Shown here: positions 19,716 through 31,285 of the stretch, in pieces
Numbering within the stretch: the first letter of the stretch is position 1
Layout: every line of letters begins with the position of its first letter
Source: Escherichia phage Baret
DNA: 64,000 bases
Strand: one strand, 5' to 3'
Sequence record: OR896834.1
Made by a program: the position numbers and the translations under genes
Notes under the pieces: generated by a model
Database searches by the model: none
The model's input: the letters and a program-made list of their open reading frames with translations, nothing else
Told to the model about the DNA's origin: nothing

Positions 19716-20033
19716 ATGACTTTTCATATTTTGATTGATGATGTGCGTAATCTTCATGGAATGGACATTATCATTCGAACCCCAGAAGCCGCTGTAGAGT
19801 TTCTGAATAAAACTGATACCACAGGCCATTTCGTTTATATGGATAATGACTTGGCTGTAGATGGTATGGAAGGTTATCAAATTCTTCGTTTACTCTTAGA
19901 ATTTGGGCAGAGACCAAAGAAAGTGGTACTAGTAACCTCGAACCCAGTAGCTAAGCAAAATATGCGTAATGATTTGCTTGACTTAGGGTATAAAGAAAAT
20001 CCCAATCGTGTTGAATATGATTGGCAGGAGTAA
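19716..20033 (+). CDS. hypothetical protein (105 aa)
   Basis: ORF track. Confidence 0.45.
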   Translation: MTFHILIDDVRNLHGMDIIIRTPEAAVEFLNKTDTTGHFVYMDNDLAVDGMEGYQILRLLLEFGQRPKKVVLVTSNPVAKQNMRNDLLDLGYKENPNRVEYDWQE

Positions 20034-20038
20034 AAAGA

Positions 20039-20488
20039 ATGAAGGCAGCTTTGCTTTTAGTAGCTGCCCTTACCTTCAGCTTTAGTAGTCAGGCATCGCA
20101 CGATGCAAAAGAAATAGATTGCATTGCTAAAAATATCTATTTCGAAAGTCGTGGTGAGGGCATAAAGGGAATGACGGCGATTGCACATGTTACTAAAAAC
20201 CGTGTAAACTCCGGTAAATTCCCAGATTCCTACTGTAAAGTAGTATATCAGTCTAACCAGTTCTCTTGGGTATCTAAGAGACCAAAAGTTGATAAAACTG
20301 ATGAGGCTTGGCAAACCGCCAAGAATTTAGCTAGAGTGATATACTACGTTGATTTACCACAAGATCCTACACATGGAGCACTATACTTCCATAGTGGTAA
20401 AGATAAACCTTACTGGACAAAGAAGTTTAAGAAAACAACTAAGATTAAGGGACATACGTTTTATAAACCTGTTGTCACTAAAACTTAA
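20039..20488 (+). CDS. secreted SleB-like cell-wall hydrolase-like protein
   Basis: ATG 20039; signal peptide MKAALLLVAALTFSFSSQA; NIYFESRGEG...AHVTKNR resembles SleB/Hydrolase_2 family. Confidence 0.5.
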   Translation: MKAALLLVAALTFSFSSQASHDAKEIDCIAKNIYFESRGEGIKGMTAIAHVTKNRVNSGKFPDSYCKVVYQSNQFSWVSKRPKVDKTDEAWQTAKNLARVIYYVDLPQDPTHGALYFHSGKDKPYWTKKFKKTTKIKGHTFYKPVVTKT

Positions 20489-20496
20489 AAATTTAC

Positions 20497-20525
20497 TTGC
20501 TTAAATACTTAAATTTCCGTATAAT
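20497..20525 (+). promoter_or_regulatory. early promoter (TTGCTT-17-TATAAT)
   Basis: -35 20497-20502, -10 20520-20525. Confidence 0.6.
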
Positions 20526-20556
20526 ACTTCCATAAATTAATGAGAGGAAGCGAAAT

Positions 20557-20727
20557 ATGAAATCAGTTGTAATTATTGGTGTTAACACTCGCGGTATTCG
20601 TACTACGAAAACTGTTAAAACTTCTAACGTTGCTGAGATCACTACGAACCCTAAAAAGTTTGATTTCGCCAAAGTCTCAGCAGTTATGACAGAACGATCT
20701 TTTAACCAAGCGTTAGGAATGAAATAA
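20557..20727 (+). CDS. hypothetical small protein (56 aa)
   Basis: ATG 20557 with SD GAGAGGAAG after promoter; below ORF-track size cut-off. Confidence 0.35.
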   Translation: MKSVVIIGVNTRGIRTTKTVKTSNVAEITTNPKKFDFAKVSAVMTERSFNQALGMK

Positions 20728-21170
20728 TGGAAGAGAATATTTTAGATGTTTTGCGTAGAGCTTTGCAGGATTCTAAGTTTAATGGTTCTGATAAAGAAGT
20801 CGCTAAAAGCTATCAGACCATAATCGGGGATCTTCAGCGTATTAATAAAGATTTCATCACTTCTGAACAATTTGTGTCTTATCTCAAAGCTCAACTAAAA
20901 AGCATTAACCAGATGAAAGCTAAACTTCATGGTCAAGATCTTGATAGTTATAGCTTGCAGTCCGCTCAGTATGAATACATTCTAAATAAGTGGTTGCAGG
21001 AGTATCTGCCTCCTCAGTTATCTGATACTGAGATTCGTAAATACTTTGCAGAATTAGTTAAGCTAAACCCTGGAATTACAAAAGGTATGCTAATGAAAGC
21101 GATTAAGGAAGAATTTCCTGGGCGTTATGATGGTGGTACTGCTGCTCAGATTGCTGGCGAATTTAATTAA
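20727..21170 (+). CDS. hypothetical protein (147 aa)
   Basis: ORF track. Confidence 0.45.
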   Translation: MEENILDVLRRALQDSKFNGSDKEVAKSYQTIIGDLQRINKDFITSEQFVSYLKAQLKSINQMKAKLHGQDLDSYSLQSAQYEYILNKWLQEYLPPQLSDTEIRKYFAELVKLNPGITKGMLMKAIKEEFPGRYDGGTAAQIAGEFN

Positions 21171-21178
21171 AAATTTAT

Positions 21179-21207
21179 TTGCTAAATGCTTATAAATTCT
21201 GTATAAT
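21179..21207 (+). promoter_or_regulatory. early promoter followed by ~800 nt without ORF
   Basis: -35 21179-21184, -10 21202-21207; reads into non-coding stretch then tRNA-Arg. Confidence 0.6.
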
Positions 21208-22019
21208 ATATTCATAAATTAGAGAACAGCGAGCCGATTACGCTGAACTTGTCTTAATGTAAGATGCGTCAAGCACTAAGATTCGTTGAATAGAGTCGGT
21301 GGGTTAGTTGTAAAACTAGTACACAGGGGGCGGCAATCCCGGTTAGTGGCTAGAACGTGTAAAATGAGGCGTCTGAAACCTCTCCCCTAAACTCTTCTCT
21401 AATTTATAAATAGTGGGGTGTGGAAATCACTTATGTAGTAACACTGCCGTCCTAGTATAATTGGTATTATCAAGCCGTAACTGGTGGAAGATGTAGGTTC
21501 GAATCCTACGGTCGGTAAGAACTGGATAACTGATGCTTTTAACGTAAAAGCTTCCGAGGTTAGTTGCGCACTGCCTAAACCACGCGGTAGTTGGTTCCAG
21601 ACTAACCAACCAGTCTGCTGAATAGTTTTATTACGATTTAACTATGCCCAGGCTAAAGAAGAACTTTAGAAGGTATTCTAGGGTAGTGAAGTTCTTTCTC
21701 CATATCGGAGTAGTTTTTCAAGCTATCCACAAAGTGGGAAATGCTGACATGAGAGATGTCACTAATGGTGCACAATAGCACAGGTAATTCGCGATAACTC
21801 CTGTTGAGTAGCAGCAAAAGGTGGGAAGTCATGACCCCAAGCCTAACCGAGTCCTCAATATACCGCAGGACATAACCACTAAGTCACCCTGACTTAAACT
21901 GGAAAATAATAGACGTTACCGTATTTTGTCTTGAAATACTTAATGAGTGAGACTTATGACTCTCCCGGTATCGTCTGTATTTTTAAGAGTTTTTACGAGA
22001 GTTCTTAAAAATACTTAAA

Positions 22020-22094
22020 CGGGGTGTAGTCTAAGGGATAGGCAGGAGTCTTCTAAATTCCTTTATGCAGGTTCGAATCCTGTCACCTCGGCCA
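22020..22094 (+). tRNA. tRNA-Arg (anticodon TCT)
   Basis: Hand-folded: 7-bp acceptor, anticodon loop CTTCTAA, T-arm GCAGG-TTCGAAT-CCTGT, encoded CCA. Confidence 0.8.
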
Positions 22095-22128
22095 ATTTTA
22101 TTAACTGTAACTAAAACAAAGGAAATAT

Positions 22129-23076
22129 ATGTTTAATACTAAAAATATGAAAGAACTAACTTCTGAGCAGAAAGTAATTCGTACTATTAAACGTTGGGGG
22201 ATTGGTGCTGTAGTTGGTTTAGCAGGTTTAATCCTAGCTTTTAATTCATATACTATTGTTTCTGATGGTACGGTTAAAACCCAAACATTTCTTGGTAAAG
22301 TAGATCCTAACCCAGTATTACCTGGTTTCCATCCTGTAAACCCATTTGCATCTTTCGATACTTTTAGTACAAAAGATATTGCTGTAAAATTAGATAAACT
22401 TCAGGTTCCTAGCCAGGATAAGTTTAAATCCACTGTTGACCTGACTGTTATGTTGCAGTTTGATGGTTCTAAGGCACCGATTAACCGTATTAATGCAGGT
22501 ACTCAGGATCAAGCATTAGACAAATATGTAACTGAAAAATTACTGTCTACTATTCGTGAGTTTGGTAAGTCTGTACCTAAAGCACAAGATTTATTTGATG
22601 CTAAAATTCAGGCTCAATTGCAAACTGCAATTCAACAGGAAGTTGAAGAGTATGCACGCCCATATGGCTACACAGTTAAGCAGGTGTTTCTTCAGGATAT
22701 TACTTTGCCACCAGTAATCATGGAACAGGTACAGAATACCAAAGTTCGTGAAGAGCAAGTTAATGCTGCAAAAGCTGAACTGGCTCGCGTTGAACAAGAA
22801 GCTCAGCAGAAAGTTAAACAAGCAGAAGCAGACCGTGAAGCTCGTAATAACCAAGCTATTGCTAACGAACGCGACGCAGATGCTAAACTGTATGCAGCTA
22901 AGAAAGAAGCTGAAGCTAACGCCGCGCTGCAACGTACCATTACTCCTGAGATGATTCGCTGGAAGCAACTAGAAGTTGAAATGATTCGTGCTCAGAAGTA
23001 TCAAGGTGGTGTACCGCAGACTGTGGTTGGCACTGGTTACGATGGCCAGATGATTATGGATATGCGTAATAAGTAA
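22129..23076 (+). CDS. SPFH/band-7 (stomatin/prohibitin-like) membrane protein
   Basis: 315 aa; N-terminal TM helix, SPFH-like core, long Ala/Glu/Gln-rich coiled coil. Confidence 0.65.
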   Translation: MFNTKNMKELTSEQKVIRTIKRWGIGAVVGLAGLILAFNSYTIVSDGTVKTQTFLGKVDPNPVLPGFHPVNPFASFDTFSTKDIAVKLDKLQVPSQDKFKSTVDLTVMLQFDGSKAPINRINAGTQDQALDKYVTEKLLSTIREFGKSVPKAQDLFDAKIQAQLQTAIQQEVEEYARPYGYTVKQVFLQDITLPPVIMEQVQNTKVREEQVNAAKAELARVEQEAQQKVKQAEADREARNNQAIANERDADAKLYAAKKEAEANAALQRTITPEMIRWKQLEVEMIRAQKYQGGVPQTVVGTGYDGQMIMDMRNK

Positions 23077-23100
23077 TATCCACGCGTAATATTCGAAGTA

Positions 23101-23133
23101 AGCCCTGTGTTTCCTGGAGAGCGCAGGGCTTTT
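23101..23133 (+). terminator. intrinsic terminator after SPFH gene
   Basis: AGCCCTG...CAGGGCT hairpin followed by TTTT. Confidence 0.6.
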
Positions 23134-23173
23134 CTGTATAATGTATTTATACAACTAACTAGGGGATCAAATA

Positions 23174-23692
23174 ATGACTGTTGATGAACTAACAGAACAT
23201 CTCTTATCTAGAGGGTTTGATACAGATAAATATCACTGCTGGCTAAGCCCAGAAGGATGGCTAACAGTCCCATTGTATGACTTCTCTGGGATGTTGAGAG
23301 GCTATCAGACTTATAATCCTTCTGCTCCAAAAGGTCATGGTAAATGCCCCTTTGAAGCTAGATATTTTACTTATTCTACTACACAGTGTGTATGGGGACT
23401 AGAAACTCTCAATGGAGACGAAAAAGTAGTATTGATTGCTGAATCTGTATTTAAGGCAGTTGCGTTACATAACGCTGGTTATCCAGCCCTGGCAATGTTG
23501 GGTTCTTCCCCCGGAAAAGCGTTGTTAAAGCAATTGAAATTACTACCTTTTAAATTGGTAGCTGTTGGGGATAATGATCCTGCTGGTGAAAAATTTGCTA
23601 GACAATTAAATGGATTTGTTTCTCCTGTAGATGTGGATGAGATGTCTACCGAAAACTTGAAAAATTTTCTTGCTATGAAGCTAAATTTCTAA
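23174..23692 (+). CDS. Toprim-domain protein (172 aa)
   Basis: VVLIAESVFKAV...LVAVGDNDPAGEKFA matches Toprim E...DxD core. Confidence 0.5.
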   Translation: MTVDELTEHLLSRGFDTDKYHCWLSPEGWLTVPLYDFSGMLRGYQTYNPSAPKGHGKCPFEARYFTYSTTQCVWGLETLNGDEKVVLIAESVFKAVALHNAGYPALAMLGSSPGKALLKQLKLLPFKLVAVGDNDPAGEKFARQLNGFVSPVDVDEMSTENLKNFLAMKLNF

Positions 23693-23698
23693 TATAAT
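23670..23698 (+). promoter_or_regulatory. early promoter driving tRNA genes
   Basis: -35 23670-23675, -10 23693-23698; overlaps 3' end of Toprim ORF. Confidence 0.55.
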
Positions 23699-23712
23699 AT
23701 ATTTATAAATTC

Positions 23713-23801
23713 GGAAGAATAGCATAACGGTATTGCAGCAGATTGCTAATCTGTCGGTTTGAAATATAGCCTTGTGGGTTCGATTCCCACTTCTTCCGCC
23801 A
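23713..23801 (+). tRNA. tRNA-Ser (anticodon GCT)
   Basis: Acceptor GGAAGAA/TTCTTCC, loop TTGCTAA, long variable arm, T-arm GTGGG-TTCGATT-CCCAC, CCA. Confidence 0.8.
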
Positions 23802-23807
23802 AATTCT

Positions 23808-23885
23808 GGTTCTCAAGCTCATATGGTATGAGCACCCGGCTCATAACCGGAAGGTACGTAGGTTCGAATCCTCGGGGAGCCACCA
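23808..23885 (+). tRNA. tRNA with CAT anticodon (Met/fMet/Ile2 type)
   Basis: 7-bp acceptor (2 GU), D-stem GCTC/GAGC, loop CTCATAA, CCA; T-stem imperfect. Confidence 0.6.
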
Positions 23886-24101
23886 ACTTAATTAGGGGAT
23901 TACAAGTGGAATTATACATAGTTTATGTTGTGTTTATTCAAGATAGAGAATACCCTGATGAATATAAAAAAGGATATAGGTTAGCCAGAGCTACTTCTGA
24001 AGCCCAAGCTATGGATAAAGTGGCAGATTATATGCTTACAGTAGAAAACGTACACTACATCGACTACCTTGAAGCCTCAAAAGTAATTGACTAAACTACA
24101 C

Positions 24102-24178
24102 GGGGGTGTAATCGAATTGGCATAGGTACTGGACTTAAAATTCAGGTTTTGTGGGTTCGAATCCCACCACCCCTACCA
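24102..24178 (+). tRNA. tRNA-like gene, anticodon loop CTTAAAA (TAA, Leu-type) with short variable loop
   Basis: 7-bp acceptor, AC stem CTGGA/TTCAG, T-arm GTGGG-TTCGAAT-CCCAC, CCA; type-I architecture unusual for Leu. Confidence 0.55.
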
Positions 24179-24353
24179 AATTAAGGAAATAAGATGTATA
24201 GACACCCACCTCCGCCAACACGTCGTTCTAGAGAAGTTATCCTCATGGAATTGACTAAAAACTTCAAGGCAACTCTTGAGGATAGAGATTTAGGCACGGA
24301 TGAAGACATTGATTTTATTTGTAGACTATTAAAGATGAAACTGGAGAAACAAC

Positions 24354-24560
24354 ATGGCTAATCCTGAAATTACCATGCAACGATTCATGGCTAAAGGCAT
24401 GATAGCTGAGGCAGGCATTGAACAAGAAGTAAAAAGTTATTACGAACAGATTAAGGGTATTGTAGACTCGGCTAAAAACACCGGAGAAAAAGAACATGGT
24501 GCGGCAATTATGGCTATAACTCTTATTAGTCTAGACTTGGCCGAAGAATCTGGAGTTTAG
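24354..24560 (+). CDS. hypothetical protein (68 aa)
   Basis: ORF track. Confidence 0.35.
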   Translation: MANPEITMQRFMAKGMIAEAGIEQEVKSYYEQIKGIVDSAKNTGEKEHGAAIMAITLISLDLAEESGV

Positions 24561-24590
24561 CTCCTCCAAACAGAATTTTTAAAAATGTAC

Positions 24591-24620
24591 TTGCCTTTTG
24601 CCTTAAATTTCTGATATAAT
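24591..24620 (+). promoter_or_regulatory. early promoter (TTGCCT-18-TATAAT)
   Basis: -35 24591-24596, -10 24615-24620. Confidence 0.55.
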
Positions 24621-24650
24621 AATTATATAAATTGATGGAGGAGTTAACGA

Positions 24651-24926
24651 ATGCAAAATCGTGTTGTAGCAACTGGTATTGAAAGTGCAATCTGTAAATC
24701 CTGGGAAGGCTGGGAAGGTGAGATTGAATGGCTTTATTTCTATGATGTAGAACTTCTACCGGAAGTTAAAGCTAAATGTATTGAAGCTGGCATGGCTCCA
24801 GATGCAAAAGCTGATATTGATATTTTAATGTCTGAACTTAAAGGTCGTGTAGTTACCGTTAGTAATGAGGGCGAAGAAGTTTTCGAACTTCCATTTTCCT
24901 TAACTGTCACTCCTAAGTTCGACTAA
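24651..24926 (+). CDS. hypothetical protein (91 aa)
   Basis: ORF track; SD GGAGGAG. Confidence 0.45.
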   Translation: MQNRVVATGIESAICKSWEGWEGEIEWLYFYDVELLPEVKAKCIEAGMAPDAKADIDILMSELKGRVVTVSNEGEEVFELPFSLTVTPKFD

Positions 24927-24962
24927 CTAATACAGCACTGAGCAAGTTCTTTAAAATTTGAC

Positions 24963-24991
24963 TTGCTCAGTGCCTTAAAACTTGATATAAT
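24963..24991 (+). promoter_or_regulatory. early promoter driving tRNA genes
   Basis: -35 TTGCTC 24963-24968, -10 TATAAT 24986-24991. Confidence 0.55.
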
Positions 24992-25007
24992 AGTTATCTA
25001 ATTCGGA

Positions 25008-25057
25008 AACATATTTAAAAGTGTTTAAACTAGTATTTGAATACTTTTAAATATGTT
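25008..25057. repeat. 14-bp inverted repeat between promoter and tRNA-Tyr
   Basis: AACATATTTAAAAG ... CTTTTAAATATGTT, arms ~22 nt apart. Confidence 0.6.
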
Positions 25058-25145
25058 GGATTAGTATCGTAGAGGTAGCGAAGCAGACTGTAAATCTGCC
25101 GACTCGGAAGGGTCTCGGGTGGTTCGACTCCATCATCCAACACCA
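25055..25145 (+). tRNA. tRNA-Tyr (anticodon GTA)
   Basis: Acceptor GTTGGAT/ATCCAAC, AC stem GCAGA/TCTGC loop CTGTAAA, long variable arm, CCA. Confidence 0.85.
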
Positions 25146-25152
25146 AATTTAA

Positions 25153-25229
25153 GTCCTGTTAGACAAACTGGTAAAGTCACTACCCTTTCAAGGTAGGGTT
25201 TGCGGGTTCGATCCCCGCACAGGACGCCA
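25153..25229 (+). tRNA. tRNA-Glu (anticodon TTC)
   Basis: Acceptor GTCCTGT/ACAGGAC, AC stem CTACC/GGTAG loop CTTTCAA, T-arm GCGGG-TTCGATC-CCCGC, CCA. Confidence 0.85.
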
Positions 25230-25238
25230 ATTAATAAT

Positions 25239-25309
25239 TGGGGTACGCATAGGTTGCAAATGGGCCTCCAAAACCCATGAAAAGGTTTCGAATACCTTTA
25301 CCCCTGCCA
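25239..25309 (+). tRNA. tRNA-Trp (anticodon CCA), U1-U72 mismatch
   Basis: 6/7 acceptor pairs, loop CTCCAAA, T-arm AAGGT-TTCGAAT-ACCTT, CCA. Confidence 0.6.
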
Positions 25310-25315
25310 AAATTT

Positions 25316-25390
25316 GCACCTTTAGCTGAGATGGATTAGCGCTTGCCTGAAGAGCTTGAGAGGTTCGTTCGATACGAACAGGGTGCACCA
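25316..25390 (+). tRNA. atypical tRNA-like gene (possible Phe GAA; non-canonical T-arm)
   Basis: Acceptor GCACCTT/AGGGTGC pairs and CCA present, loop CTGAAGA possible, but T-arm does not fold canonically. Confidence 0.35.
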
Positions 25391-25407
25391 AATTGAAGGA
25401 GATGCTG

Positions 25408-25677
25408 ATGCATCCTGAAAACTTCTTTATTTACTGCGCGGATAAGTTGCTGAAACGTAGAATTAACAAAGTCTATCATTATCGTGTTAGTCAACAGCCT
25501 TATGTATACGCTTTTGACGGTGATCACATTTCATTAGAACAATTATCTTGTGATTACATGATATTGAAGAACTTTGACGAGACGAAGATCTCAAGCGTTC
25601 ACAATCGACAGAATCCATTAACGTGGAAATATAAGAAAAAGAAAGGCATCAAATTCTTAAAAAATGTAGTTGCTTAG
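25408..25677 (+). CDS. hypothetical protein (89 aa)
   Basis: ATG 25408 with AAGGAG 6 nt upstream; track TTG 25393 trimmed. Confidence 0.4.
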   Translation: MHPENFFIYCADKLLKRRINKVYHYRVSQQPYVYAFDGDHISLEQLSCDYMILKNFDETKISSVHNRQNPLTWKYKKKKGIKFLKNVVA

Positions 25678-25698
25678 TTTCCAAAAGTTCTGTATAAT
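25670..25698 (+). promoter_or_regulatory. early promoter (TTGCTT-17-TATAAT)
   Basis: -35 25670-25675, -10 25693-25698. Confidence 0.55.
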
Positions 25699-25727
25699 AA
25701 ATACATAAATTGAACTGGAGAAGCAAC

Positions 25728-25946
25728 ATGACAGAACAAGAATTGAATGAACGTAAGCTAGTAATGCTTCGCTTACTAAATATTTTCTCTGGTATGGACG
25801 GTGGTGGTGATTTCTTAAGACTTAAGGTATTTACAGAAACTGCCGAAGGTGATGCAATCTCTAGAGTTATTAGGAACATGGGAAGCCTGCTAGATGTGGC
25901 TGGAGTAGCTACTCAATACACCTTAGATAATCCTACTGGAGAATAA
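25728..25946 (+). CDS. hypothetical protein (72 aa)
   Basis: ATG 25728 with SD GGAGAAG. Confidence 0.4.
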   Translation: MTEQELNERKLVMLRLLNIFSGMDGGGDFLRLKVFTETAEGDAISRVIRNMGSLLDVAGVATQYTLDNPTGE

Positions 25947-26138
25947 ATGAGAAGATTAGTTAGATTTAAGTGTTGTAGTTCTGAACATATTTTCACACAT
26001 CTTCGTGAATTTAAAATGTGTGATTGTGGTAAATCAGGCTATGACTCTGGAAATGGGTTCTACACCCGTACTCTAGGGAACTTCAATGATTTAGAATTTG
26101 AAGATCTCGAAAAACAAGATAAACCGACCGTTGGCTGA
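25947..26138 (+). CDS. small Cys-rich (zinc-finger-like) protein
   Basis: 63 aa; CC...CDC cysteines; 3' end overlaps tRNA-Cys. Confidence 0.4.
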   Translation: MRRLVRFKCCSSEHIFTHLREFKMCDCGKSGYDSGNGFYTRTLGNFNDLEFEDLEKQDKPTVG

Positions 26139-26200
26139 ATGGCTTAGGCGAAGGATTGCAAATCCTTTTTATGTGAGTTCAAATCTCATGCGGTCGTCCA
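26125..26200 (+). tRNA. tRNA-Cys (anticodon GCA)
   Basis: Acceptor CGACCGT/GCGGTCG, AC stem AAGGA/TCCTT loop TTGCAAA, T-arm GTGAG-TTCAAAT-CTCAT, CCA. Confidence 0.8.
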
Positions 26201-26221
26201 AATTACTAAAGGAAAGAAGTA

Positions 26222-26740
26222 GTGCATACAAAAGTTTTTGATAGTTTGGTAAAGAAAGGCGTTGTTACTAACGAGCCCTTCTATATAACCGCAGAACTAA
26301 TCCAGAGATTTATGGAAGAATATATAAATCTTTCAGGAACCAATGGTAATACCAAAAAGAATACAAATACTATGTATTCGAGAAAACTTGCTGCACTTTC
26401 CTTTATAAAGTTTAAGCAGGAAAATAAACTTCCTATTTCTGAAGGTTTTGTATACTGTATTAGTAATCCTGCATGGAAAAATCAGTATAAAATAGGTATG
26501 AGTCAAAATCCAAAAGAGAGATTAGCTCAATATCAGACTTATTCCCCTTATAGGGATTATAAGTTAGAGCATTGGTCTTTTTGGTTTGACAAACGAAAAG
26601 GTGAAAAACTAATTCACCAGTATTTCAAAGATTTAAAAGAACATGAGTGGTTTAGTATAAATTCTAGGGATCTTAGTAAATATCTAGAACGTATTAACTC
26701 TAGTTCTGACTTATATGGTTCCTTAGCTCTAATTGGTTAG
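26222..26740 (+). CDS. T5orf172-type GIY-YIG-like nuclease-domain protein
   Basis: 172 aa; GFVYCISNP...YKIGMSQNPKER motif; true start may be internal Met; last ~24 nt overlap tRNA-Asn. Confidence 0.55.
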   Translation: MHTKVFDSLVKKGVVTNEPFYITAELIQRFMEEYINLSGTNGNTKKNTNTMYSRKLAALSFIKFKQENKLPISEGFVYCISNPAWKNQYKIGMSQNPKERLAQYQTYSPYRDYKLEHWSFWFDKRKGEKLIHQYFKDLKEHEWFSINSRDLSKYLERINSSSDLYGSLALIG

Positions 26741-26794
26741 AGCGGCATCTTGTTAAGTTGAGGGTTGCTGGTTCGAATCCAACAGGAACCGCCA
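26717..26794 (+). tRNA. tRNA-Asn (anticodon GTT)
   Basis: Acceptor GGTTCCT/AGGAACC, D-stem GCTC/GAGC, loop TTGTTAA, CCA; AC stem has 2 mismatches. Confidence 0.7.
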
Positions 26795-26896
26795 AATTCT
26801 GTGTAGAGTTAAGTAAACCGGTAGCCAACCAGCTATCATTGCTGACATCGAATTCAGCCATAGATACCATTTTCGTTAATAACTGAGGAAACAAGC

Positions 26897-27082
26897 ATGT
26901 CCAAGAATGTAATTGCGCAGCTAGAAGTTCATCGTGATAGCACTATCAACAATATTGAAGTTGAGAAGAAATACATAGAAGAACTTAAACATGATATACT
27001 GGTAAGTCTCAACCGTCTTAATGTACGAAAAGAGTTTCTTAAAGAACTTAATGCAGCTATTGAAAAACTCAAAGCTGAGTAA
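26897..27082 (+). CDS. hypothetical coiled-coil protein (61 aa)
   Basis: ORF track. Confidence 0.35.
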   Translation: MSKNVIAQLEVHRDSTINNIEVEKKYIEELKHDILVSLNRLNVRKEFLKELNAAIEKLKAE

Positions 27083-27091
27083 ATGAATTAT

Positions 27092-27168
27092 GCGACCGGG
27101 GCTGGCTTGGTAATGGTACTCCCCTGTCACGGGAGAGAATGTGGGTTCAAATCCCATCGGTCGCGCCA
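27092..27168 (+). tRNA. tRNA-Asp (anticodon GTC)
   Basis: Acceptor GCGACCG/CGGTCGC, AC stem CTCCC/GGGAG loop CTGTCAC, T-arm GTGGG-TTCAAAT-CCCAT, CCA. Confidence 0.85.
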
Positions 27169-27185
27169 AATAAGGTAGGTTAGCT

Positions 27186-27344
27186 ATGGAACGTAGGGAG
27201 TTTACTCCAGAAGAGATAGAGCAGATAAAAGAATCTGCTATGAAAAATGCTAGAATATCTCTGTCACTGGAAGGTATCATTATTAGTGATGTAAACTTTG
27301 AAAAAATCAAAGCCATAGCTGATGAACTGGAAAAAGTAATTTAA
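27186..27344 (+). CDS. hypothetical small protein (52 aa)
   Basis: ATG 27186 with SD AAGGTAGG; below ORF-track cut-off. Confidence 0.3.
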   Translation: MERREFTPEEIEQIKESAMKNARISLSLEGIIISDVNFEKIKAIADELEKVI

Positions 27345-27345
27345 T

Positions 27346-27421
27346 ACATCCATAGCTCAATGGTTAGAGCTACCGCCTCTTAAGCGGAGGGTTCTAGGTT
27401 CAAGTCCTAGTGGGTGTACCA
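27346..27421 (+). tRNA. tRNA-Lys (anticodon CTT)
   Basis: Acceptor ACATCCA/TGGGTGT, D-stem GCTC/GAGC, loop CTCTTAA, T-arm CTAGG-TTCAAGT-CCTAG, CCA. Confidence 0.75.
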
Positions 27422-27447
27422 AATTAAACTAGCACGAGAAATATGCT

Positions 27448-27795
27448 ATGATTAATGCTAAAGAAGAATTGTTACTTGCCCTAAAGAATACTAATTCTGA
27501 AGTTAAGTGTATTAAGATAGAATTCGGTTATTATGGGGATAAAGAAGTTTGGGTATTACCCGTAGGTTATACAGAAAAAGATATTGAAGATTTTCTAGAT
27601 AATCTAGACTTTAAATATGATTCTGGTTTCGGCGGACAATTGCTTTATGGTAACGTATGGTTTACCGATGGAACTTGGTTAGAACGTGGTGAATATGATG
27701 GTTCTGAATGGTGGGAATATAAGACTACACCAGCAATCCCAGAAGAATGCCGAACAATTAATGGTGAAGTAGATCGTACTTTACTATTAAATTAA
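27448..27795 (+). CDS. hypothetical protein (115 aa)
   Basis: ORF track. Confidence 0.45.
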   Translation: MINAKEELLLALKNTNSEVKCIKIEFGYYGDKEVWVLPVGYTEKDIEDFLDNLDFKYDSGFGGQLLYGNVWFTDGTWLERGEYDGSEWWEYKTTPAIPEECRTINGEVDRTLLLN

Positions 27796-28187
27796 CAAAA
27801 TTTCAGTGCAGAACACGGAGCTAGCAATTCGGAAGTGCTGACTCATGATAAGCTGCCTATGTACTTGCGAAGCGGTCGTGTCCAAGACTCGGACTCTTGC
27901 ACTGAAAACAATCAAACATTCTAGCGTGGTTGATGGGGAAACCAGCTTGGCGAGGGCAGAAGCTCGTTCGATTCGAGTGAAAGAATGGTTCTCGTAAGTC
28001 CGCACAAGTGATAACAGGTTCGAGTCCTGTCTAGAATGACACTATAAAGTTTACTTATTATGTAGGTTCCGATAGACCGGCGGGTCTATTCTGGCATTTA
28101 AGAGAGGTCTCGCAAACTTCTTTGTCAGCCGTGGGGTTGGTAGCCTCCAGGTGGCCTACACAATAAGTAAATTTATTAAAAATTCAT

Positions 28188-28216
28188 TTGCTATTCTGCT
28201 TTATTATCTGTATAAT
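28188..28216 (+). promoter_or_regulatory. early promoter (TTGCTA-17-TATAAT)
   Basis: -35 28188-28193, -10 28211-28216. Confidence 0.6.
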
Positions 28217-28248
28217 ATATTTTATAAAGTGAAGAGAAGGAAAGCAAA

Positions 28249-28407
28249 ATGAAACACAAGATAGCTCAAGTTTTTATGGCATTATGGTGTATACCAATAG
28301 CTATAACAGCATTTAATCTAGATACTTTTACTATAGAAGAAAAATGTATCGGATTAGTTAGCGGTTTTAGTATGCTGGGCTTATCTTTGCTGTGGTTAAA
28401 GAAATAA
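28249..28407 (+). CDS. small hydrophobic membrane protein (52 aa)
   Basis: ATG 28249 with SD GAAGGAAAG after promoter; below ORF-track cut-off. Confidence 0.35.
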   Translation: MKHKIAQVFMALWCIPIAITAFNLDTFTIEEKCIGLVSGFSMLGLSLLWLKK

Positions 28408-28411
28408 TATT

Positions 28412-28489
28412 CTCCGTGTAGCTCAGTTTGGCCAGAGCGTTTCGTTTGGGGCGATAGGGTCGGGGGTTCAAATCCTCCCACGGAGACCA
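28412..28489 (+). tRNA. tRNA-Pro (anticodon TGG)
   Basis: Acceptor CTCCGTG/CACGGAG, D-stem GCTC/GAGC, loop TTTGGGG, T-arm GGGGG-TTCAAAT-CCTCC, CCA. Confidence 0.8.
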
Positions 28490-28495
28490 AACAAT

Positions 28496-28573
28496 TGCGG
28501 GTTAGATCTCTGGTAGAGATCGCTAGTCTCATAAGCTAGAAAGAGGTAGGTTCGATTCCTGCACCCGCTTCCA
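28496..28573 (+). tRNA. tRNA with CAT anticodon (Met/Ile2 type), U1-U72 mismatch
   Basis: D-stem GATC/GATC, AC stem CTAGT/GCTAG loop CTCATAA, T-arm GTAGG-TTCGATT-CCTGC, CCA. Confidence 0.7.
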
Positions 28574-28593
28574 CTTTAATAGAGGATTTCGAA

Positions 28594-28761
28594 ATGAAAG
28601 TATTTCGATTAGTAGTAAGTGACAAACGTTTAGGTAAGAATACCTCAAAATCCTTACTTGCTCATTATGGAAAAGATGAGAAAGAAGTAATGGCGGAGTT
28701 TGGGATTAATCACCCTTACTTGAAAGTTCACTCTATTAAAGAAGTATATAATGGTTACTAA
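28594..28761 (+). CDS. hypothetical small protein (55 aa)
   Basis: ATG 28594; between tRNAs; below ORF-track cut-off. Confidence 0.3.
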   Translation: MKVFRLVVSDKRLGKNTSKSLLAHYGKDEKEVMAEFGINHPYLKVHSIKEVYNGY

Positions 28762-28762
28762 T

Positions 28763-28841
28763 AGATCGCTAGCTCAATAGGTTTAGTAGCATCCGACTTT
28801 TAATCGGAAGGTTCTGGGTTCGAGTCCCAGGCGATCTACCA
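28763..28841 (+). tRNA. tRNA-Lys (anticodon TTT)
   Basis: Acceptor AGATCGC/GCGATCT, AC stem TCCGA/TCGGA loop CTTTTAA, T-arm CTGGG-TTCGAGT-CCCAG, CCA. Confidence 0.85.
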
Positions 28842-28859
28842 ATTTCAAGAAAAACGCAG

Positions 28860-28888
28860 TTGCTTGATGCTTAATTTCTTGTTATAAT
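28860..28888 (+). promoter_or_regulatory. early promoter followed by non-coding leader then tRNA-Ala
   Basis: -35 TTGCTT 28860-28865, -10 TATAAT 28883-28888. Confidence 0.6.
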
Positions 28889-29126
28889 ATTTATATAAAT
28901 TGATGAGGATTTCTCCTCATCATAGTTCACTAAGGTATTAGCTCGACCTAGGACTGGCTGCCAAAAAGCACGATCCCTACGATTCGGGAGGAGTTCTAGA
29001 TTAGTCCACTAGATTCAGCGGCAACTGAATAGTGTATTGGGTTTGCGAGATGACGCGGTTCCTTCCGCTCGAAGCGAAGGTGCTGTAGTTACGCCGAGCT
29101 AATAGCCTTAGTAAACTAAAGAATTT

Positions 29127-29205
29127 GGGGGATGGGTCTGCTAGGGGTGGACACCTCGCTTGCACCGAGGACATCAGAACGATTCGAATTCGTTATCCTC
29201 CACCA
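29127..29205 (+). tRNA. tRNA-Ala (anticodon TGC)
   Basis: Acceptor GGGGGAT/ATCCTCC, AC stem CCTCG/CGAGG loop CTTGCAC, T-arm AACGA-TTCGAAT-TCGTT, CCA. Confidence 0.7.
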
Positions 29206-29210
29206 AATAC

Positions 29211-29287
29211 GCGTGATTGATGGAATTGGCATACATACCGTCCTTAGAAGTCGGGTTTTGAGGGTTCGAATCCCTTGTCACGCACCA
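29211..29287 (+). tRNA. tRNA-like gene, anticodon loop CTTAGAA (TAG, Leu-type) with short variable loop
   Basis: Acceptor GCGTGAT/GTCACGC, T-arm GAGGG-TTCGAAT-CCCTT, CCA; type-I architecture unusual for Leu. Confidence 0.55.
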
Positions 29288-29412
29288 AATTTGATGGTCA
29301 GAGTAAATTAAACCTACTATCTCGGTTGAGCTGTTTTAATGGGTTCGAATCCCAGCGAGGCGTAACTGCCTGGTGTGATAGAGGCATCATTCCACTAACA
29401 TTGGAAAAACTA

Positions 29413-29643
29413 ATGAAACGAAAATTAAAAAAGTCTTATATAATTAAGATAAATAAGCTACGAAGTAGGGCAAAAGGATGGCCACTTCGAATATTAATTG
29501 CGGATAACCATACTAGATACCATGCGGAACAACGTCATTACAAACAGTGGGAGTCATACTGCCGCTCAAAAGCAGGTCGTTTAGATGGATCTTATGAGTT
29601 TCTATTTGGTAAGAAGCCTACTAGAGTAGCTTTAGGTAATTAA
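29413..29643 (+). CDS. hypothetical basic protein (76 aa)
   Basis: Internal ATG of track ORF 29275-29643, whose 5' part overlaps tRNA sequence. Confidence 0.3.
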   Translation: MKRKLKKSYIIKINKLRSRAKGWPLRILIADNHTRYHAEQRHYKQWESYCRSKAGRLDGSYEFLFGKKPTRVALGN

Positions 29644-29648
29644 TACTT

Positions 29649-29739
29649 GGAAGAGCAAATCGAATTGGCGACGAAAACCGCTTGGAAAGTGGCTGACTGG
29701 TAAAACGGCTTGAGAGTTCAAATCTCTCCTCTTCCGCCA
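29649..29739 (+). tRNA. tRNA-Ser (anticodon GGA)
   Basis: Acceptor GGAAGAG/CTCTTCC, loop TTGGAAA, long variable arm, T-arm GAGAG-TTCAAAT-CTCTC, CCA. Confidence 0.75.
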
Positions 29740-29751
29740 AACAATTTATAT

Positions 29752-29846
29752 GGTAGGTCAATCCAACGGCTGGCGCTGGACTCCGACTTGAAATCGGTTG
29801 ATCGTAGTGATACGGTGTAAGGGTTCGATCCCCTTACCTACCTCCA
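29752..29846 (+). tRNA. tRNA-Ser (anticodon TGA)
   Basis: Acceptor GGTAGGT/ACCTACC, AC stem CCGA/TCGG loop CTTGAAA, long variable arm, T-arm AAGGG-TTCGATC-CCCTT, CCA. Confidence 0.75.
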
Positions 29847-29851
29847 AATCT

Positions 29852-29980
29852 TGGAATATGCCGGAATTGGTAGACGGGACTGCCGAATAGGTTTACTAGG
29901 AACATCCACTCCTAGAAATATACCTTAAAAGCGGTTGAGTTAAATGGTCTAACTCATGAAGGTTCAAGCCCTTCTATTCC
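29852..29980 (+). ncRNA. atypical ~127-nt tRNA-like RNA with Leu-type D-arm
   Basis: 5' TGGAATA + D-arm CCGG-AATTGGTAGA-CGGG, two extra hairpins, T-arm GAAGG-TTCAAGC-CCTTC and 3' TATTCCT pairing with the 5' end; no canonical anticodon arm. Confidence 0.3.
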
Positions 29981-30211
29981 TTGATACATCAATGGCTCAA
30001 AGTGTAACGGTGCTATTTGATGCTCTTGGAAAGACTTTCCCGACATGCGTTCGGGGGTAAGCTTCTGAGGCTAGAATAGAAGAGTTTCTGAGAGCCGCCA
30101 CAATTGAAAATTCGTACTCGTCTTGAGCTGCGTGCAATAGGAGATAACTTGATTAGTATTCTAGAACATGCTAATTGAGGATGGTTTCGCTAACCCTGCG
30201 AGTTTTCAATT

Positions 30212-30289
30212 GTGGCTATATCATAATTGGTTAATGATCCTGATTGTGAATCAGGCCTATGTGGATTCGAATTCCACTAGCCACCCCCA
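30212..30289 (+). tRNA. tRNA-His (anticodon GTG)
   Basis: Acceptor GTGGCTA/TAGCCAC, AC stem CCTGA/TCAGG loop TTGTGAA, T-arm GTGGA-TTCGAAT-TCCAC. Confidence 0.8.
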
Positions 30290-30314
30290 AATTAACTTAA
30301 ATAGGAAATAAAAT

Positions 30315-30509
30315 ATGGCTGATTTCTGCAAACAATGCTCCATTGATATGTGGGGCAGAGATACTGGTGATCTTTCTGGGCTGATTACAGAAGCCGAAGT
30401 CAAAGAAGGTTATGGTGCAGTTGTGGTTTGTGAAGGATGCGGAGTCATTCGAGTAGATCATGAGGGTAAGCGCCTTGAAGAATCTGAGCCAGTTACCCTA
30501 TTTCCCTAA
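30315..30509 (+). CDS. small zinc-ribbon-like protein (64 aa)
   Basis: ORF track; CKQC...CEGC cysteine pairs. Confidence 0.4.
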   Translation: MADFCKQCSIDMWGRDTGDLSGLITEAEVKEGYGAVVVCEGCGVIRVDHEGKRLEESEPVTLFP

Positions 30510-30522
30510 AGTAAAGAATTAT

Positions 30523-30598
30523 TGGGATGTAGATCAATTGGCAGATCGTCGGCCTCTGACTCCGAAGGTTCCACGTTCGATCCGTGGCATCCCAGCCA
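30523..30598 (+). tRNA. tRNA-Gln (anticodon CTG)
   Basis: Acceptor TGGGATG/CATCCCA, D-stem GATC/GATC, loop CTCTGAC, T-arm CCACG-TTCGATC-CGTGG, CCA. Confidence 0.75.
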
Positions 30599-30604
30599 AA
30601 TACT

Positions 30605-30680
30605 TGGAGAGTAGTGTAACGGTTAGCACAACGGCCTTTGACTCCGTTAATGGTAGGTTCGATTCCTCCTTCTCCAGCCA
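30605..30680 (+). tRNA. tRNA-Gln (anticodon TTG)
   Basis: Acceptor TGGAGAG/TTCTCCA, D-stem GTGT/GCAC, loop CTTTGAC, CCA. Confidence 0.75.
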
Positions 30681-30687
30681 AATTAAT

Positions 30688-30762: not shown

Positions 30763-30776
30763 AATAAGGAAACACT

Positions 30777-31187: not shown

Positions 31188-31195
31188 GGATCATC

Positions 31196-31270: not shown

Positions 31271-31285
31271 AATTTAAAAATTCAT

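What the first reader, a model, noticed from the sequence alone, without database searches (positions are those of the whole stretch)
21208..22019. Promoter-driven ~800-nt stretch without ORFs, rich in hairpins, upstream of tRNA-Arg
A canonical early promoter (21179-21207) is followed by ~810 nt lacking any ORF of 60 aa or more on the plus strand. The stretch contains a degenerate tRNA-like element (~21446-21517, good T-arm, no anticodon arm) and several strong hairpins, including CAGACT-loop-AGTCTG (~21596-21615) and a 12-bp inverted repeat GTATTTTTAAGA/TTCTTAAAAATAC (~21977-22014) just before tRNA-Arg. This fits stable small RNAs or processing signals of unknown function.
Basis: seen in the sequence. 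Interest (0 to 1): 0.55.

Follow-up and report, generated by a model that had tools for sequence, protein, structure and literature searches.

The report
T5 "RNAX": large structured phage RNA
The ORF-free stretch is the counterpart of "RNAX", a roughly 0.8-kb non-coding RNA gene already annotated in phages T5 and BF23; here it proves to be a chain of conserved folded RNA domains, one carrying a tRNA-shaped branch, and its function is still unknown.

Summary
An early promoter (21179-21207) precedes about 806 nt (21214-22019) with no conserved ORF, ending at tRNA-Arg (22020). The window is a Tequintavirus. The homologous stretch in T5 (AY543070) and BF23 (NC_042564) is annotated as misc_RNA rnaX, "stable RNA with unknown functions", so the entity is already known. 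It is absent from Rfam and I found no paper on it.

New here:
- Every small ORF is broken in close relatives.
- The RNA is a string of separately closed domains supported by compensatory changes.
- Domain A is a 5' pseudoknot domain. It is present in six Demerecviridae genera but deleted in T5 itself.
- Domain B is a scaffold found across the family. Its "pseudo-tRNA" is an optional branch, replaced by a plain hairpin in some phages.
- Domain D carries an invariant palindromic loop, GUCAUGAC.
- A conserved 17-bp hairpin lies just before tRNA-Arg.
- A YqeY-like gene sits upstream in four of the five lineages compared.

Most likely this is a stable trans-acting structured RNA released by tRNA processing. 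In context and architecture it resembles GOLLD and ROOL RNAs, but it is not a member of either family. Function is inferred only.

The parts
21179..21207 (+). Sigma-70-type early promoter (TTGCTA-17-TATAAT), homologous to T5/BF23 promoter P16-17
21214..22019 (+). RNAX transcript body, 806 nt. The +1 at about 21214 is inferred from the -10 spacing. The 3' end is inferred from RNase P cleavage at the 5' end of tRNA-Arg.
   Evidence: Homology to T5 rnaX: 91.7% over 516 nt plus 97.8% over 138 nt. No plus-strand terminator lies inside. No conserved ORF.
21214..21407 (+). Domain A. P1 is 21214-21226 with 21395-21407 (13 bp) and sequesters the 5' end. P2 hairpin is 21227-21245. A pseudoknot pairs the P2 loop GCCGA (21233-21237) with UCGGU (21296-21300). 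P4 is 21301-21305 with 21390-21394. Variable hairpins lie between these elements.
   Evidence: Counted: 96% of cells paired; the pseudoknot is paired 5 of 5 in three covarying versions. Absent in T5, where P1 closes as a plain hairpin.
21413..21583 (+). Domain B, closed by GUGG 21413-21416 with CCAC 21580-21583 (AUGG/CCAU in phage bobsandoy). It begins with the conserved single-stranded motif GGGGUGUGGAA.
   Evidence: Covariance model R1 finds it in Pectobacterium, Proteus and Providencia phages.
21426..21534 (+). Leader-trailer stem, 21426-21439 with 21521-21534. It has 12 pairs plus invariant C-C and G-G mismatches and carries the tRNA-like branch.
   Evidence: (99.4% paired, 6 of 12 pairs with a change on both sides).
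21446..21517 (+). tRNA-shaped branch with acceptor, D and T arms, a degenerate anticodon arm and no encoded CCA. Annotated elsewhere as pseudo-tRNA, tRNA-OTHER, tRNA-Ser or tRNA-Sec.
   Evidence: Replaced by unrelated hairpins in L025/L027 and in Proteus and Providencia phages.
21535..21551 (+). Hairpin GCUUUUAACGUAAAAGC
   Evidence: helix 7: 100% paired, 2 covarying pairs.
21584..21731 (+). Domain C, which exists in variable versions. It includes helix 21590-21596 with 21604-21610 and hairpin UAGAA-GGUA-UUCUA at 21667-21680.
   Evidence: UAGGC/GCCUA and UAGUC/GACUA variants.
21732..21881 (+). Domain D, closed by GUGG 21734-21737 with CCAC 21876-21879. Hairpins lie at 21745-21761, 21766-21813, 21819-21844 and 21851-21871.
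   Evidence: (91% paired, 9 pairs with a change on both sides, 0 of 500 shuffles).
21828..21835 (+). Invariant palindrome GUCAUGAC in the apical loop of hairpin 21819-21844. The stem sequence differs between lineages.
   Evidence: It occurs only once in the 64-kb window.
21789..21794 (+). Palindrome UCGCGA within 21766-21813. T5 has CGCGCG here. UCGCGA also sits in a hairpin loop in Proteus and Providencia phages.
21882..21894 (+). Invariant hairpin AGUCA-CCC-UGACU, followed by the conserved linker UAAACUGGAA
21912..21975 (+). Three-way junction: outer helix 21912-21921 with 21966-21975 and two inner hairpins separated by a conserved UUAAU. Three sequence versions exist among phages.
   Evidence: by inspection only; not formally counted.
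21977..22014 (+). 17-bp A/U-rich hairpin marking the 3' end of the array in all lineages
   Evidence: (U-A to C-G change; G-U pairs specific to the plus strand).
22020..22094 (+). tRNA-Arg(UCU), co-transcribed. Its 5' processing would release RNAX.

Best explanation
The interval is the gene for RNAX, a non-coding, highly structured phage RNA of about 0.8 kb.

Shown here:
- It is orthologous to the annotated rnaX of T5 and BF23.
- It is not protein-coding.
- It is built from at least five separately closed domains whose helices are maintained by compensatory evolution on the plus strand.
- Domains A and B, the palindromic-loop hairpin and the 3' hairpin extend beyond the T5 genus to other Demerecviridae.

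Inferred:
- Host RNA polymerase starts at about 21214 from the early promoter.
- The 13-bp P1 helix buries the 5' end.
- With no terminator before 23100, the RNA is co-transcribed with tRNA-Arg and the Band_7 gene.
- RNase P cleavage at 22019/22020 then releases it, leaving a 17-bp hairpin plus a 5-nt tail. Both ends are thereby protected, which fits a 'stable RNA'.

Speculative function (roughly 25% likely): it acts in trans as a scaffold or decoy. It would present a tRNA elbow and conserved loops to a tRNA-binding partner, with the YqeY-like protein encoded just upstream as a candidate. It might self-associate through its palindromic loops, in the manner of other large phage RNAs found beside tRNA islands.
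For: Identity: the window is 100% identical to Tequintavirus mar004NP2 over the query. T5 and BF23 records annotate rnaX between promoter P16-17 and tRNA-Arg, and T5 rnaX aligns to 21390-22019.

Non-coding: every ORF of 23 aa or more that was examined is frameshifted or stopped in close relatives.

Structure:
- Domain B: 92.7% of cells paired, 15 pairs with a change on both sides, 0 of 500 shuffles, slid controls 30-42%. With distant phages added, 31 of 37 pairs covary.
- Domain D: 91% paired, 9 pairs with a change on both sides.
- Domain A core with pseudoknot: 96% paired. The pseudoknot occurs as GCCGA:UCGGU, GCAGA:UCUGU and GCAUA:UAUGU.
- P1 shows matching 2-nt expansions on both strands.
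- G-U pairs mark the plus strand.

Conservation: domains B and D are 84-88% identical between Tequintavirus and Epseptimavirus, the same as the flanking genes. In Klebsiella phages the RNA parts (76-92%) exceed the hydrolase gene (68%).

Breadth: model R1 scores 96.9, 62.6 and 57.8 bits in Pectobacterium, Proteus and Providencia phages, which share the synteny.

Biogenesis: no plus-strand terminator lies before 23100, and tRNA-Arg abuts the 3' hairpin.

Partner lead: the YqeY-like ORF lies upstream of the RNA in four lineages, at 30-40% identity.
Against: No expression or end-mapping data were available. 'Stable RNA' rests on a GenBank note whose experimental basis I could not trace.

Folding energy does not discriminate: z is -1.8 on the plus strand and -2.1 on the minus strand.

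Domains are gained, lost and swapped between phages, and T5 lacks domain A. The unit of function may therefore be the domain rather than the whole RNA, and none may be essential.

The tRNA-like branch could direct an internal RNase P cut.

Palindromes are not enriched in the region. GUCAUGAC never varies, so there is no covariation evidence for loop-loop pairing.

The YqeY Pfam score (25.4) is below the gathering cut-off of 27, and the gene is not adjacent in Klebsiella phages.

Alignment A5 is fitted to the model and includes one spurious row, the tRNA-Arg region of L072.
Confidence: 0.85

Rival explanations
1. The interval is a polycistronic precursor of several independent small stable RNAs, one per domain. 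These would be cut apart by RNase P at the tRNA-like branch and by RNase E or RNase III, like the 70-170-nt stable RNAs elsewhere in the T5 tRNA region. On this view there is no single 0.8-kb functional RNA.
For: Each domain is closed by its own helix, and domains are present, absent or swapped independently. The T5 record lists seven other stable RNAs of 73-172 nt in the tRNA region, all with homologues in this window. The tRNA-like branch has a 7-bp acceptor stem, a known RNase P determinant (PMC4201824).
Against: T5 and BF23 annotate one RNA of 719 and 784 nt. The leader and trailer of the tRNA-like branch are held together by a strongly covarying 12-bp stem, so a cut there would not separate the halves. 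Domain order is collinear in all lineages.
Confidence: 0.3
2. The interval is a cis-acting structured leader, riboswitch-like or a processing scaffold. It would control the expression or maturation of the downstream tRNA-Arg and Band_7 gene and would not act in trans.
For: It lies at the 5' end of a transcription unit with no terminator before 23100. Domain A has the look of an aptamer: an invariant core, a pseudoknot and variable peripheral stems. tRNA-Arg always lies within about 1 kb downstream.
Against: There is no Rfam riboswitch hit at E up to 10. There is no terminator or anti-terminator, and no sequestration of a ribosome-binding site next to a regulated gene. Depending on the phage, ORFs, a homing endonuclease gene or nothing lie between the RNA and tRNA-Arg. 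T5 lacks domain A yet keeps the downstream genes. A length of 0.8-1.3 kb is far beyond known leaders.
Confidence: 0.1
3. The interval is a DNA-level element, for example a protein-binding or replication/recombination region using the palindromes and inverted repeats.
For: Invariant palindromes GTCATGAC and TCGCGA and a conserved A/T-rich inverted repeat are present. The region is a hot spot for insertions.
Against: Compensatory changes pass through G-U intermediates that pair only in plus-strand RNA. The palindromes sit in apical loops of hairpins whose stems covary. Pseudoknot covariation has no DNA rationale.
Confidence: 0.04
4. The interval is a spacer of decayed tRNA genes and recombination debris with no function of its own.
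For: It lies in a tRNA gene region rich in homing endonucleases. It contains a pseudo-tRNA. T5 tolerates loss of 165 nt.
Against: Only one tRNA-like hit exists in the interval. Conservation equals that of neighbouring genes. Covariation is widespread. Core motifs persist across subfamilies.
Confidence: 0.02
5. The interval encodes small proteins, as annotated in some genomes (for example 42-59-aa 'hypothetical proteins').
For: Gene callers place small CDSs here in several records, on either strand.
Against: The called CDSs differ in position and strand between genomes. Each window ORF is frameshifted or stopped in close relatives, including T5.
Confidence: 0.02

Closest known systems
rnaX (RNAX) of phages T5 (AY543070 / NC_005859) and BF23 (NC_042564), annotated 'stable RNA with unknown functions'
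   Same: Same locus (promoter P16-17 to tRNA-Arg), same strand, and direct sequence homology. BF23's 784 nt is close to the 806 nt here.
   Different: T5's copy lacks domain A (window 21226-21389) and carries an 87-nt duplication before the 3' junction. The records give no structure, ends or function.
GOLLD and ROOL RNAs (large ornate phage and prophage RNAs; PMC12286853)
   Same: A large multi-domain structured RNA encoded by a phage beside a tRNA island. It has variable and conserved parts, a tRNA-like unit nested inside, palindromic hairpin loops and no known function (compared).
   Different: There is no match to the Rfam GOLLD or ROOL models, or to any other large-RNA model, at E up to 10. 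The hosts are enterobacterial T5-like phages. Oligomerisation is untested, and the tRNA-shaped unit is non-decoding.
Other stable RNAs of the T5 tRNA region (RNAI, RNAIII, RNAIV, RNA1, RNA2, RNA2H, RNA3). From my own knowledge, the species 1 and 2 RNAs (rnaC, rnaD) of the T4 tRNA cluster are comparable.
   Same: Phage-encoded stable RNAs of unknown function, co-transcribed with tRNAs; some are tRNA-like. All T5 ones have homologues in this window.
   Different: They are 73-172 nt rather than about 800 nt. No sequence similarity to RNAX was found by self-BLAST apart from the promoter and the T-arm. T4 homology was not tested.
Bacterial Y RNA YrlA (tRNA-mimicking RNA bound by Rsr/Ro60; PMC4201824)
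   Same: A non-coding RNA in which a tRNA-like module with D and T arms and an acceptor stem is attached to a long stem. It also occurs in phages.
   Different: YrlA is permuted: the T arm precedes the D arm and the long stem sits at the anticodon position. It carries a GNCGAAN0-1G motif and lies next to rsr. Here the order is D then T, the long stem extends the acceptor stem, and no rsr gene is nearby.

Membership tests
T5/BF23 rnaX (RNAX) | Lies between early promoter P16-17 and tRNA-Arg(UCU), on the same strand | tested here: met
T5/BF23 rnaX (RNAX) | Sequence homology to the annotated rnaX | tested here: met
   91.7% over 516 nt and 97.8% over 138 nt; the T5 and BF23 rnaX features lie under the match.
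T5/BF23 rnaX (RNAX) | Accumulates as a stable RNA in infected cells | not testable with these tools
   Only the GenBank note is available. No paper was found.
Canonical tRNA (for 21446-21517) | Score at or above the Rfam tRNA gathering threshold | tested here: met
   35.5 bits against 29
Canonical tRNA (for 21446-21517) | 5-bp anticodon stem with a 7-nt loop carrying an anticodon | tested here: not met
   The arm is skipped by the model. It is a 3-4 bp stem with a 6-nt loop, or a long hairpin in Klebsiella phages. ARAGORN makes no call.
Canonical tRNA (for 21446-21517) | Free 5' leader and 3' trailer, with a fully paired acceptor stem | tested here: not met
   Leader and trailer form a covarying 12-bp stem. 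Positions 1-72 (G-U or G-A) and 5-68 (U-U) are mostly mismatched.
GOLLD / ROOL | Match to the Rfam covariance model | tested here: not met
   No hit at E up to 1 over 13 kb or at E up to 10 over 951 nt
GOLLD / ROOL | Phage-encoded, beside a tRNA island, large multi-helix fold | tested here: met
   criteria taken
GOLLD / ROOL | RNA-only homo-oligomer held by kissing loops | not testable with these tools
   Palindromic loops exist, but they show no covariation and are not enriched.
YrlA / bacterial Y RNA | Permuted tRNA-like module (T arm before D arm) with the long stem at the anticodon position | tested here: not met
YrlA / bacterial Y RNA | Encoded next to an rsr (Ro60/TROVE) gene | tested here: not met
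   The neighbours are a hydrolase, DUF7616, a YqeY-like gene and Band_7.
tmRNA | Detected by ARAGORN or the Rfam tmRNA models | tested here: not met
Riboswitch / cis-regulatory leader (domain A) | Match to a known aptamer class, with an adjacent expression platform | tested here: not met
   No Rfam hit. No plus-strand terminator in the interval.

The most novel reading that the evidence does not exclude
RNAX is a Demerecviridae-wide 'ornate' RNA class that has escaped Rfam. It would be a modular assembly of 0.7-1.3 kb (pseudoknot domain, tRNA-elbow scaffold, palindromic-loop domain) that dimerises or oligomerises through its invariant GUCAUGAC and UCGCGA loops. It would work with the syntenic YqeY-like protein on tRNAs or tRNA-directed host factors. 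That would make it the first GOLLD/ROOL-like RNA in a genetically tractable coliphage.
Probability: 0.15. Interest if true: 0.8.

Novelty: already known. Interest (0 to 1): 0.5.

Why it matters
T5 is a classic model phage, yet this RNA has sat in its GenBank record for about twenty years with no structure, no Rfam family and no function.

This analysis shows three things. First, it is under strong structural selection across a whole phage family. Second, the so-called pseudo-tRNA is a swappable branch of a larger conserved scaffold. Third, lab T5 has lost one whole domain. Together these turn a vague annotation into testable hypotheses.

If RNAX behaves like the enigmatic GOLLD and ROOL RNAs, which are also found next to phage tRNA islands, then E. 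coli and T5-like phages would offer a tractable system for a question that has been open since 2009.

A practical point also follows. Genome annotators currently label parts of this locus as tRNA-Ser, tRNA-Sec, tRNA-OTHER or small hypothetical proteins, and those labels are wrong.

Tried and rejected
- Rfam at permissive thresholds over the tRNA region and over the interval alone: only tRNA hits.
- Small-ORF hypothesis: rejected by frameshifts and stops in relatives.
- Folding-energy z-scores: weak and not strand-specific, so uninformative.
- YrlA/Y RNA membership: rejected on topology and gene context.
- tmRNA: no call.
- Scan of 185,579 species genomes for the domain A core: 3 hits, all chance matches in unrelated GC-rich DNA with no other RNAX similarity. 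No bacterial or prophage copies were found.
- Metagenome scan with a degenerate domain B pattern: 70 hits, of which only 11 passed the covariance model. Where contig size allowed a judgement, these were T5-like-sized contigs.
- Palindrome enrichment test: negative.
- Search for palindrome-preserving variants of GUCAUGAC: none found; it is invariant.
- Literature searches for RNAX, T5 stable RNAs and T5 transcriptomes: nothing relevant in the library.
- The alternative inner hairpin ACAGG/CCUGU in domain D: I entered it one column out of register (helix 4, 43% paired). It therefore remains untested against the RNAalifold alternative CAAUAG/CUGUUG.
- The TAAAC motif at domain boundaries: 4 copies against a background of 1.9 per kb, not significant.
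- The three-way junction of domain E: judged by eye only, because MAFFT could not align its three versions structurally.
Full report
**What the window is**

The query 21150-22130 is 100% identical to Escherichia phage vB_Eco_mar004NP2, a Tequintavirus. It has relatives in 573 phage records. The finding lies between a 147-aa ORF (20727-21170) and tRNA-Arg(UCU) at 22020-22094. That tRNA is the first of 22 tRNA genes called in the window.

**Checking the observation**

- The promoter scan gives TTGCTA-17-TATAAT at 21179-21207. T5 and BF23 records annotate the homologous site as promoter P16-17.
- The -10 box and initial transcribed sequence recur at other places in the window, as expected for the T5 early-promoter family.
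- No plus-strand ORF of 60 aa or more lies in 21208-22019.
- Rfam reports a tRNA match of 35.5 bits at 21446-21517 with the anticodon arm skipped. ARAGORN does not call it.
- The inverted repeat at 21977-22014 is real and folds into a 17-bp hairpin.
- The CAGACT/AGTCTG hairpin exists at 21598-21603 / 21612-21617. It overlaps the helix GUUGGUU/AACCAAC (21590-96 / 21604-10).
- Folding energy alone is not convincing. The z-score is -1.8 on the plus strand and -2.1 on the minus strand.

**It is already annotated**

In T5 record AY543070, the stretch from promoter P16-17 to tRNA-Arg is misc_RNA rnaX, "RNAX, stable RNA with unknown functions", 719 nt. The BF23 tRNA-region record has the same feature at 784 nt. 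T5 rnaX aligns to window 21390-21904 at 91.7% identity and to 21882-22019 at 97.8%.

The other T5 record (AY587007) marks only a pseudo-tRNA. The mar004NP2 record marks nothing. Other records call the tRNA-like piece tRNA-OTHER, tRNA-Ser or tRNA-Sec, or place small hypothetical CDSs on either strand. I found no paper on RNAX in the searchable library, and Rfam has no family for it.

**It is not coding**

Seven ORFs of 23-60 aa on both strands were followed through an alignment of close relatives. Each is frameshifted or stopped in at least one relative, T5 itself among them.

**It is modular**

BLAST maps against Tequintavirus, Epseptimavirus, Sugarlandvirus (Klebsiella) and unclassified relatives show a collinear array. 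Its pieces are independently present, absent or replaced. I call them domains A to E.

**Domain A (21214-21407)**

- The first 13 nt of the transcript pair with 21395-21407 to form P1.
- In T5-type phages the 165 nt between the P1 strands are missing, and P1 closes as a plain hairpin.
- Phages with a 2-nt expansion in the 5' strand have a matching one in the 3' strand.
- Inside lie an invariant hairpin P2 (21227-21245), variable hairpins, and P4 (21301-05 / 21390-94).
- The P2 loop GCCGA (21233-37) pairs with UCGGU (21296-300) to form a pseudoknot. In Pectobacterium and Proteus phages the pair is GCAGA:UCUGU, and in a Providencia phage it is GCAUA:UAUGU.
- Counted on trimmed constructs, the core is 96% paired against 36-46% for slid controls. 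The pseudoknot is 100% paired with two covarying positions. Those constructs were cut out by my own patterns, but the covarying positions were left unconstrained.

**Domain B (21413-21583)**

- It is closed by GUGG/CCAC, with AUGG/CCAU in phage bobsandoy.
- The tRNA-like element does not sit free. Its leader (21426-39) and trailer (21521-34) form a 12-bp stem with invariant C-C and G-G mismatches. That stem is 99.4% paired, with 6 pairs changed on both sides.
- The whole domain is 92.7% paired, 0 of 500 shuffles reach the observed values, and slid controls give 30-42%.
- The acceptor, D and T arms are kept. The anticodon arm is a stub, or a long hairpin in Klebsiella phages.
- In two Epseptimavirus lineages (L025, L027) the tRNA-like unit is replaced by an unrelated hairpin of about 40 nt inside the same stem.
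- A covariance model of the domain finds it in Pectobacterium phage DU_PP_V (96.9 bits, with a tRNA-like branch). It also finds it in Proteus PM135 (62.6 bits) and Providencia PSTCR5 (57.8 bits), where a short hairpin replaces the branch.
- On the model-fitted alignment, 31 of 37 pairs covary. That alignment leans towards the model and contains one spurious row.
- The conserved entity is therefore the scaffold. The tRNA shape is an optional decoration.

**Domain C (21584-21731)**

It exists in alternative versions. Within the version present here, the hairpin 21667-21680 covaries in three forms.

**Domain D (21732-21881)**

- It is closed by GUGG/CCAC and holds four hairpins. It is 91% paired, with 9 pairs changed on both sides and 0 of 500 shuffles reaching the observed values.
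- Divergent copies occur in other Epseptimavirus lineages and weakly in Klebsiella phages.
- The apical loop of hairpin 21819-21844 contains the 8-nt palindrome GUCAUGAC. It is invariant in every locus examined except the Providencia phage, including the Pectobacterium and Proteus phages, while the supporting stem differs completely between lineages.
- GUCAUGAC occurs only once in the 64-kb window.
- A second palindrome, UCGCGA (21789-94), is CGCGCG in T5. It recurs in a hairpin loop in the Proteus and Providencia phages.
- Palindromes as a class are not enriched here, and GUCAUGAC shows no palindrome-preserving variation. Loop-loop dimerisation is therefore only a lead.

**Domain E (21882-22019)**

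It consists of an invariant hairpin, a conserved linker, a three-way junction in three sequence versions, and the 17-bp A/U-rich hairpin. That hairpin ends the array in every lineage. This holds whether tRNA-Arg follows directly, as here, or after inserted ORFs as in Klebsiella phages and some Epseptimavirus. It is found exactly in the Pectobacterium phage, right before tRNA-Arg. It shows a U-A to C-G exchange and G-U pairs that form only in plus-strand RNA.

**Selection and distribution**

- Domains B and D are as conserved between genera as the neighbouring protein genes. In Klebsiella phages the RNA is better conserved than the hydrolase gene.
- The synteny is: hydrolase, small ORFs, 0.75-2 kb without ORFs. 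It holds in three further Demerecviridae genera. tRNA-Arg is annotated downstream in two of them; the Proteus record annotates no tRNAs.
- Outside T5-like phages nothing was found. Species-representative bacterial genomes gave only chance hits. Of 70 metagenome pattern hits, the 11 that passed the model came from T5-like contigs where this could be judged.

**How it most likely works**

Shown: this is a non-coding, plus-strand, multi-domain structured RNA gene orthologous to rnaX.

Inferred:
- Transcription starts at about 21214.
- There is no terminator before 23100-23131, so RNAX is made as the 5' part of a transcript that continues into tRNA-Arg and the Band_7 gene.
- RNase P cleavage at 22019/22020 gives the 3' end.
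- The 5' end is buried in P1 and the 3' end follows a 17-bp hairpin. This is the usual design of a nuclease-resistant RNA and fits the word "stable" in the annotation.

The function is unknown. My best guess, at about one chance in four, is a trans-acting scaffold or decoy that presents a tRNA elbow and conserved loops to a tRNA-binding partner. The 147-aa ORF just upstream has a sub-threshold YqeY match (25.4 bits against 27). Its homologues (30-40% identity) occupy the same position next to the RNA in the Pectobacterium, Proteus and Providencia phages. From my own knowledge, the YqeY-type tail of GatB contacts the tRNA D-loop. The link is suggestive, not shown.

**Comparison with known systems**

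- The nearest analogues in kind are GOLLD and ROOL. These are large ornate RNAs of phages and prophages, found next to tRNA islands. They have variable and conserved regions, sometimes nested tRNAs, and symmetric palindromic kissing loops, and their function is unknown. RNAX shares that description but does not match their Rfam models, so it is not a member.
- YrlA Y RNAs also carry a tRNA-like module on a long stem. They are permuted and linked to rsr, so membership is rejected.
- The other stable RNAs of the T5 tRNA region are much smaller and unrelated in sequence.

**Verdict**

The entity is already known as T5 RNAX, so novelty is low. What is new is the anatomy:
- its family-wide domains,
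- a covarying pseudoknot,
- the tRNA-like unit as a swappable branch,
- invariant palindromic loops,
- the natural loss of domain A in T5.

Interest is moderate. It would be high if the analogy with GOLLD and ROOL proves functional.

Noticed in passing
window 26797-26869, 27917-28041, 28060-28162, 28936-29107, 29850-29993, 29994-30100, 30105-30210: These are homologues (94-100% identical) of the seven other 'stable RNAs with unknown functions' annotated in T5: RNA3, RNA2, RNAIV, RNA2H, RNA1, RNAI and RNAIII. None matches a non-tRNA Rfam family in the scan of 20000-33000.
   Followed up: partly
window 23808-23882 and 29752-29842: Rfam finds tRNA-type matches that ARAGORN does not call. The first is a tRNA hit of 40.3 bits next to tRNA-Ser, probably the T5 tRNA-Ile2(CAU) homologue. 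The second is a tRNA-Sec-like hit of 38.3 bits, below the gathering score of 47, just upstream of the RNA1 homologue.
   Followed up: no
window 20727-21170: The 147-aa ORF upstream of RNAX has a sub-threshold YqeY match. It is annotated in different records as 'tRNA amidotransferase', 'recombination-related exonuclease' or 'YqeY domain protein'. Its homologues keep the same position beside the RNA in Pectobacterium, Proteus and Providencia phages, but not in Klebsiella Sugarlandvirus.
   Followed up: partly
L007 2780-2950, L025 3715-3880, L056 900-1145, L058 2230-2480, L060 1722-1965: Epseptimavirus, Klebsiella and related phages carry one or two extra structured modules between domains A and B that are absent from this window. 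One is about 165 nt and closed by GGUGG/CCACC. The other is about 80 nt and starts with AGUGGGUAGCG. With them the RNA reaches about 1.3 kb.
   Followed up: partly
L001 2084-2170 (T5): T5 has an 87-nt insertion that duplicates the AGUCACCUUGAC hairpin and its AAACUGG linker before the 3' junction. T5 also lacks domain A. The lab strain's RNAX is therefore rearranged relative to most relatives.
   Followed up: partly
L006 2341-2850; record NC_048809: Some Epseptimavirus phages have a 510-nt ORF inserted between the RNAX 3' hairpin and tRNA-Arg. Salmonella phage 2-3 has an HNH endonuclease gene annotated within the matched region. The boundary is an insertion hot spot.
   Followed up: no
phage records MG065642, MG065692, OR848805, OR847212 and others: Records labelled Campylobacter phage (100-113 kb) and Listeria phage (short fragments) carry T5-like sequence 84-99% identical to this locus. 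They are probably mislabelled hosts or contaminating T5-like phages.
   Followed up: no
window 23100-23131: A strong terminator-like hairpin (13 pairs followed by a T run) lies after the Band_7 gene. It is homologous in position to the 'efficient bidirectional terminator' of T5 and BF23, next to the major nick site annotated in those records.
   Followed up: no
L073 about 5905-5935; L074 about 6480-6510: In Providencia and Proteus phages, where the domain B branch is a plain hairpin, T-arm-like sequences (GGUUCGAUUCC, GGGUUCAACUCCC) occur elsewhere in the ORF-free stretch. A tRNA-like unit may sit at a different place in their RNAX.
   Followed up: no
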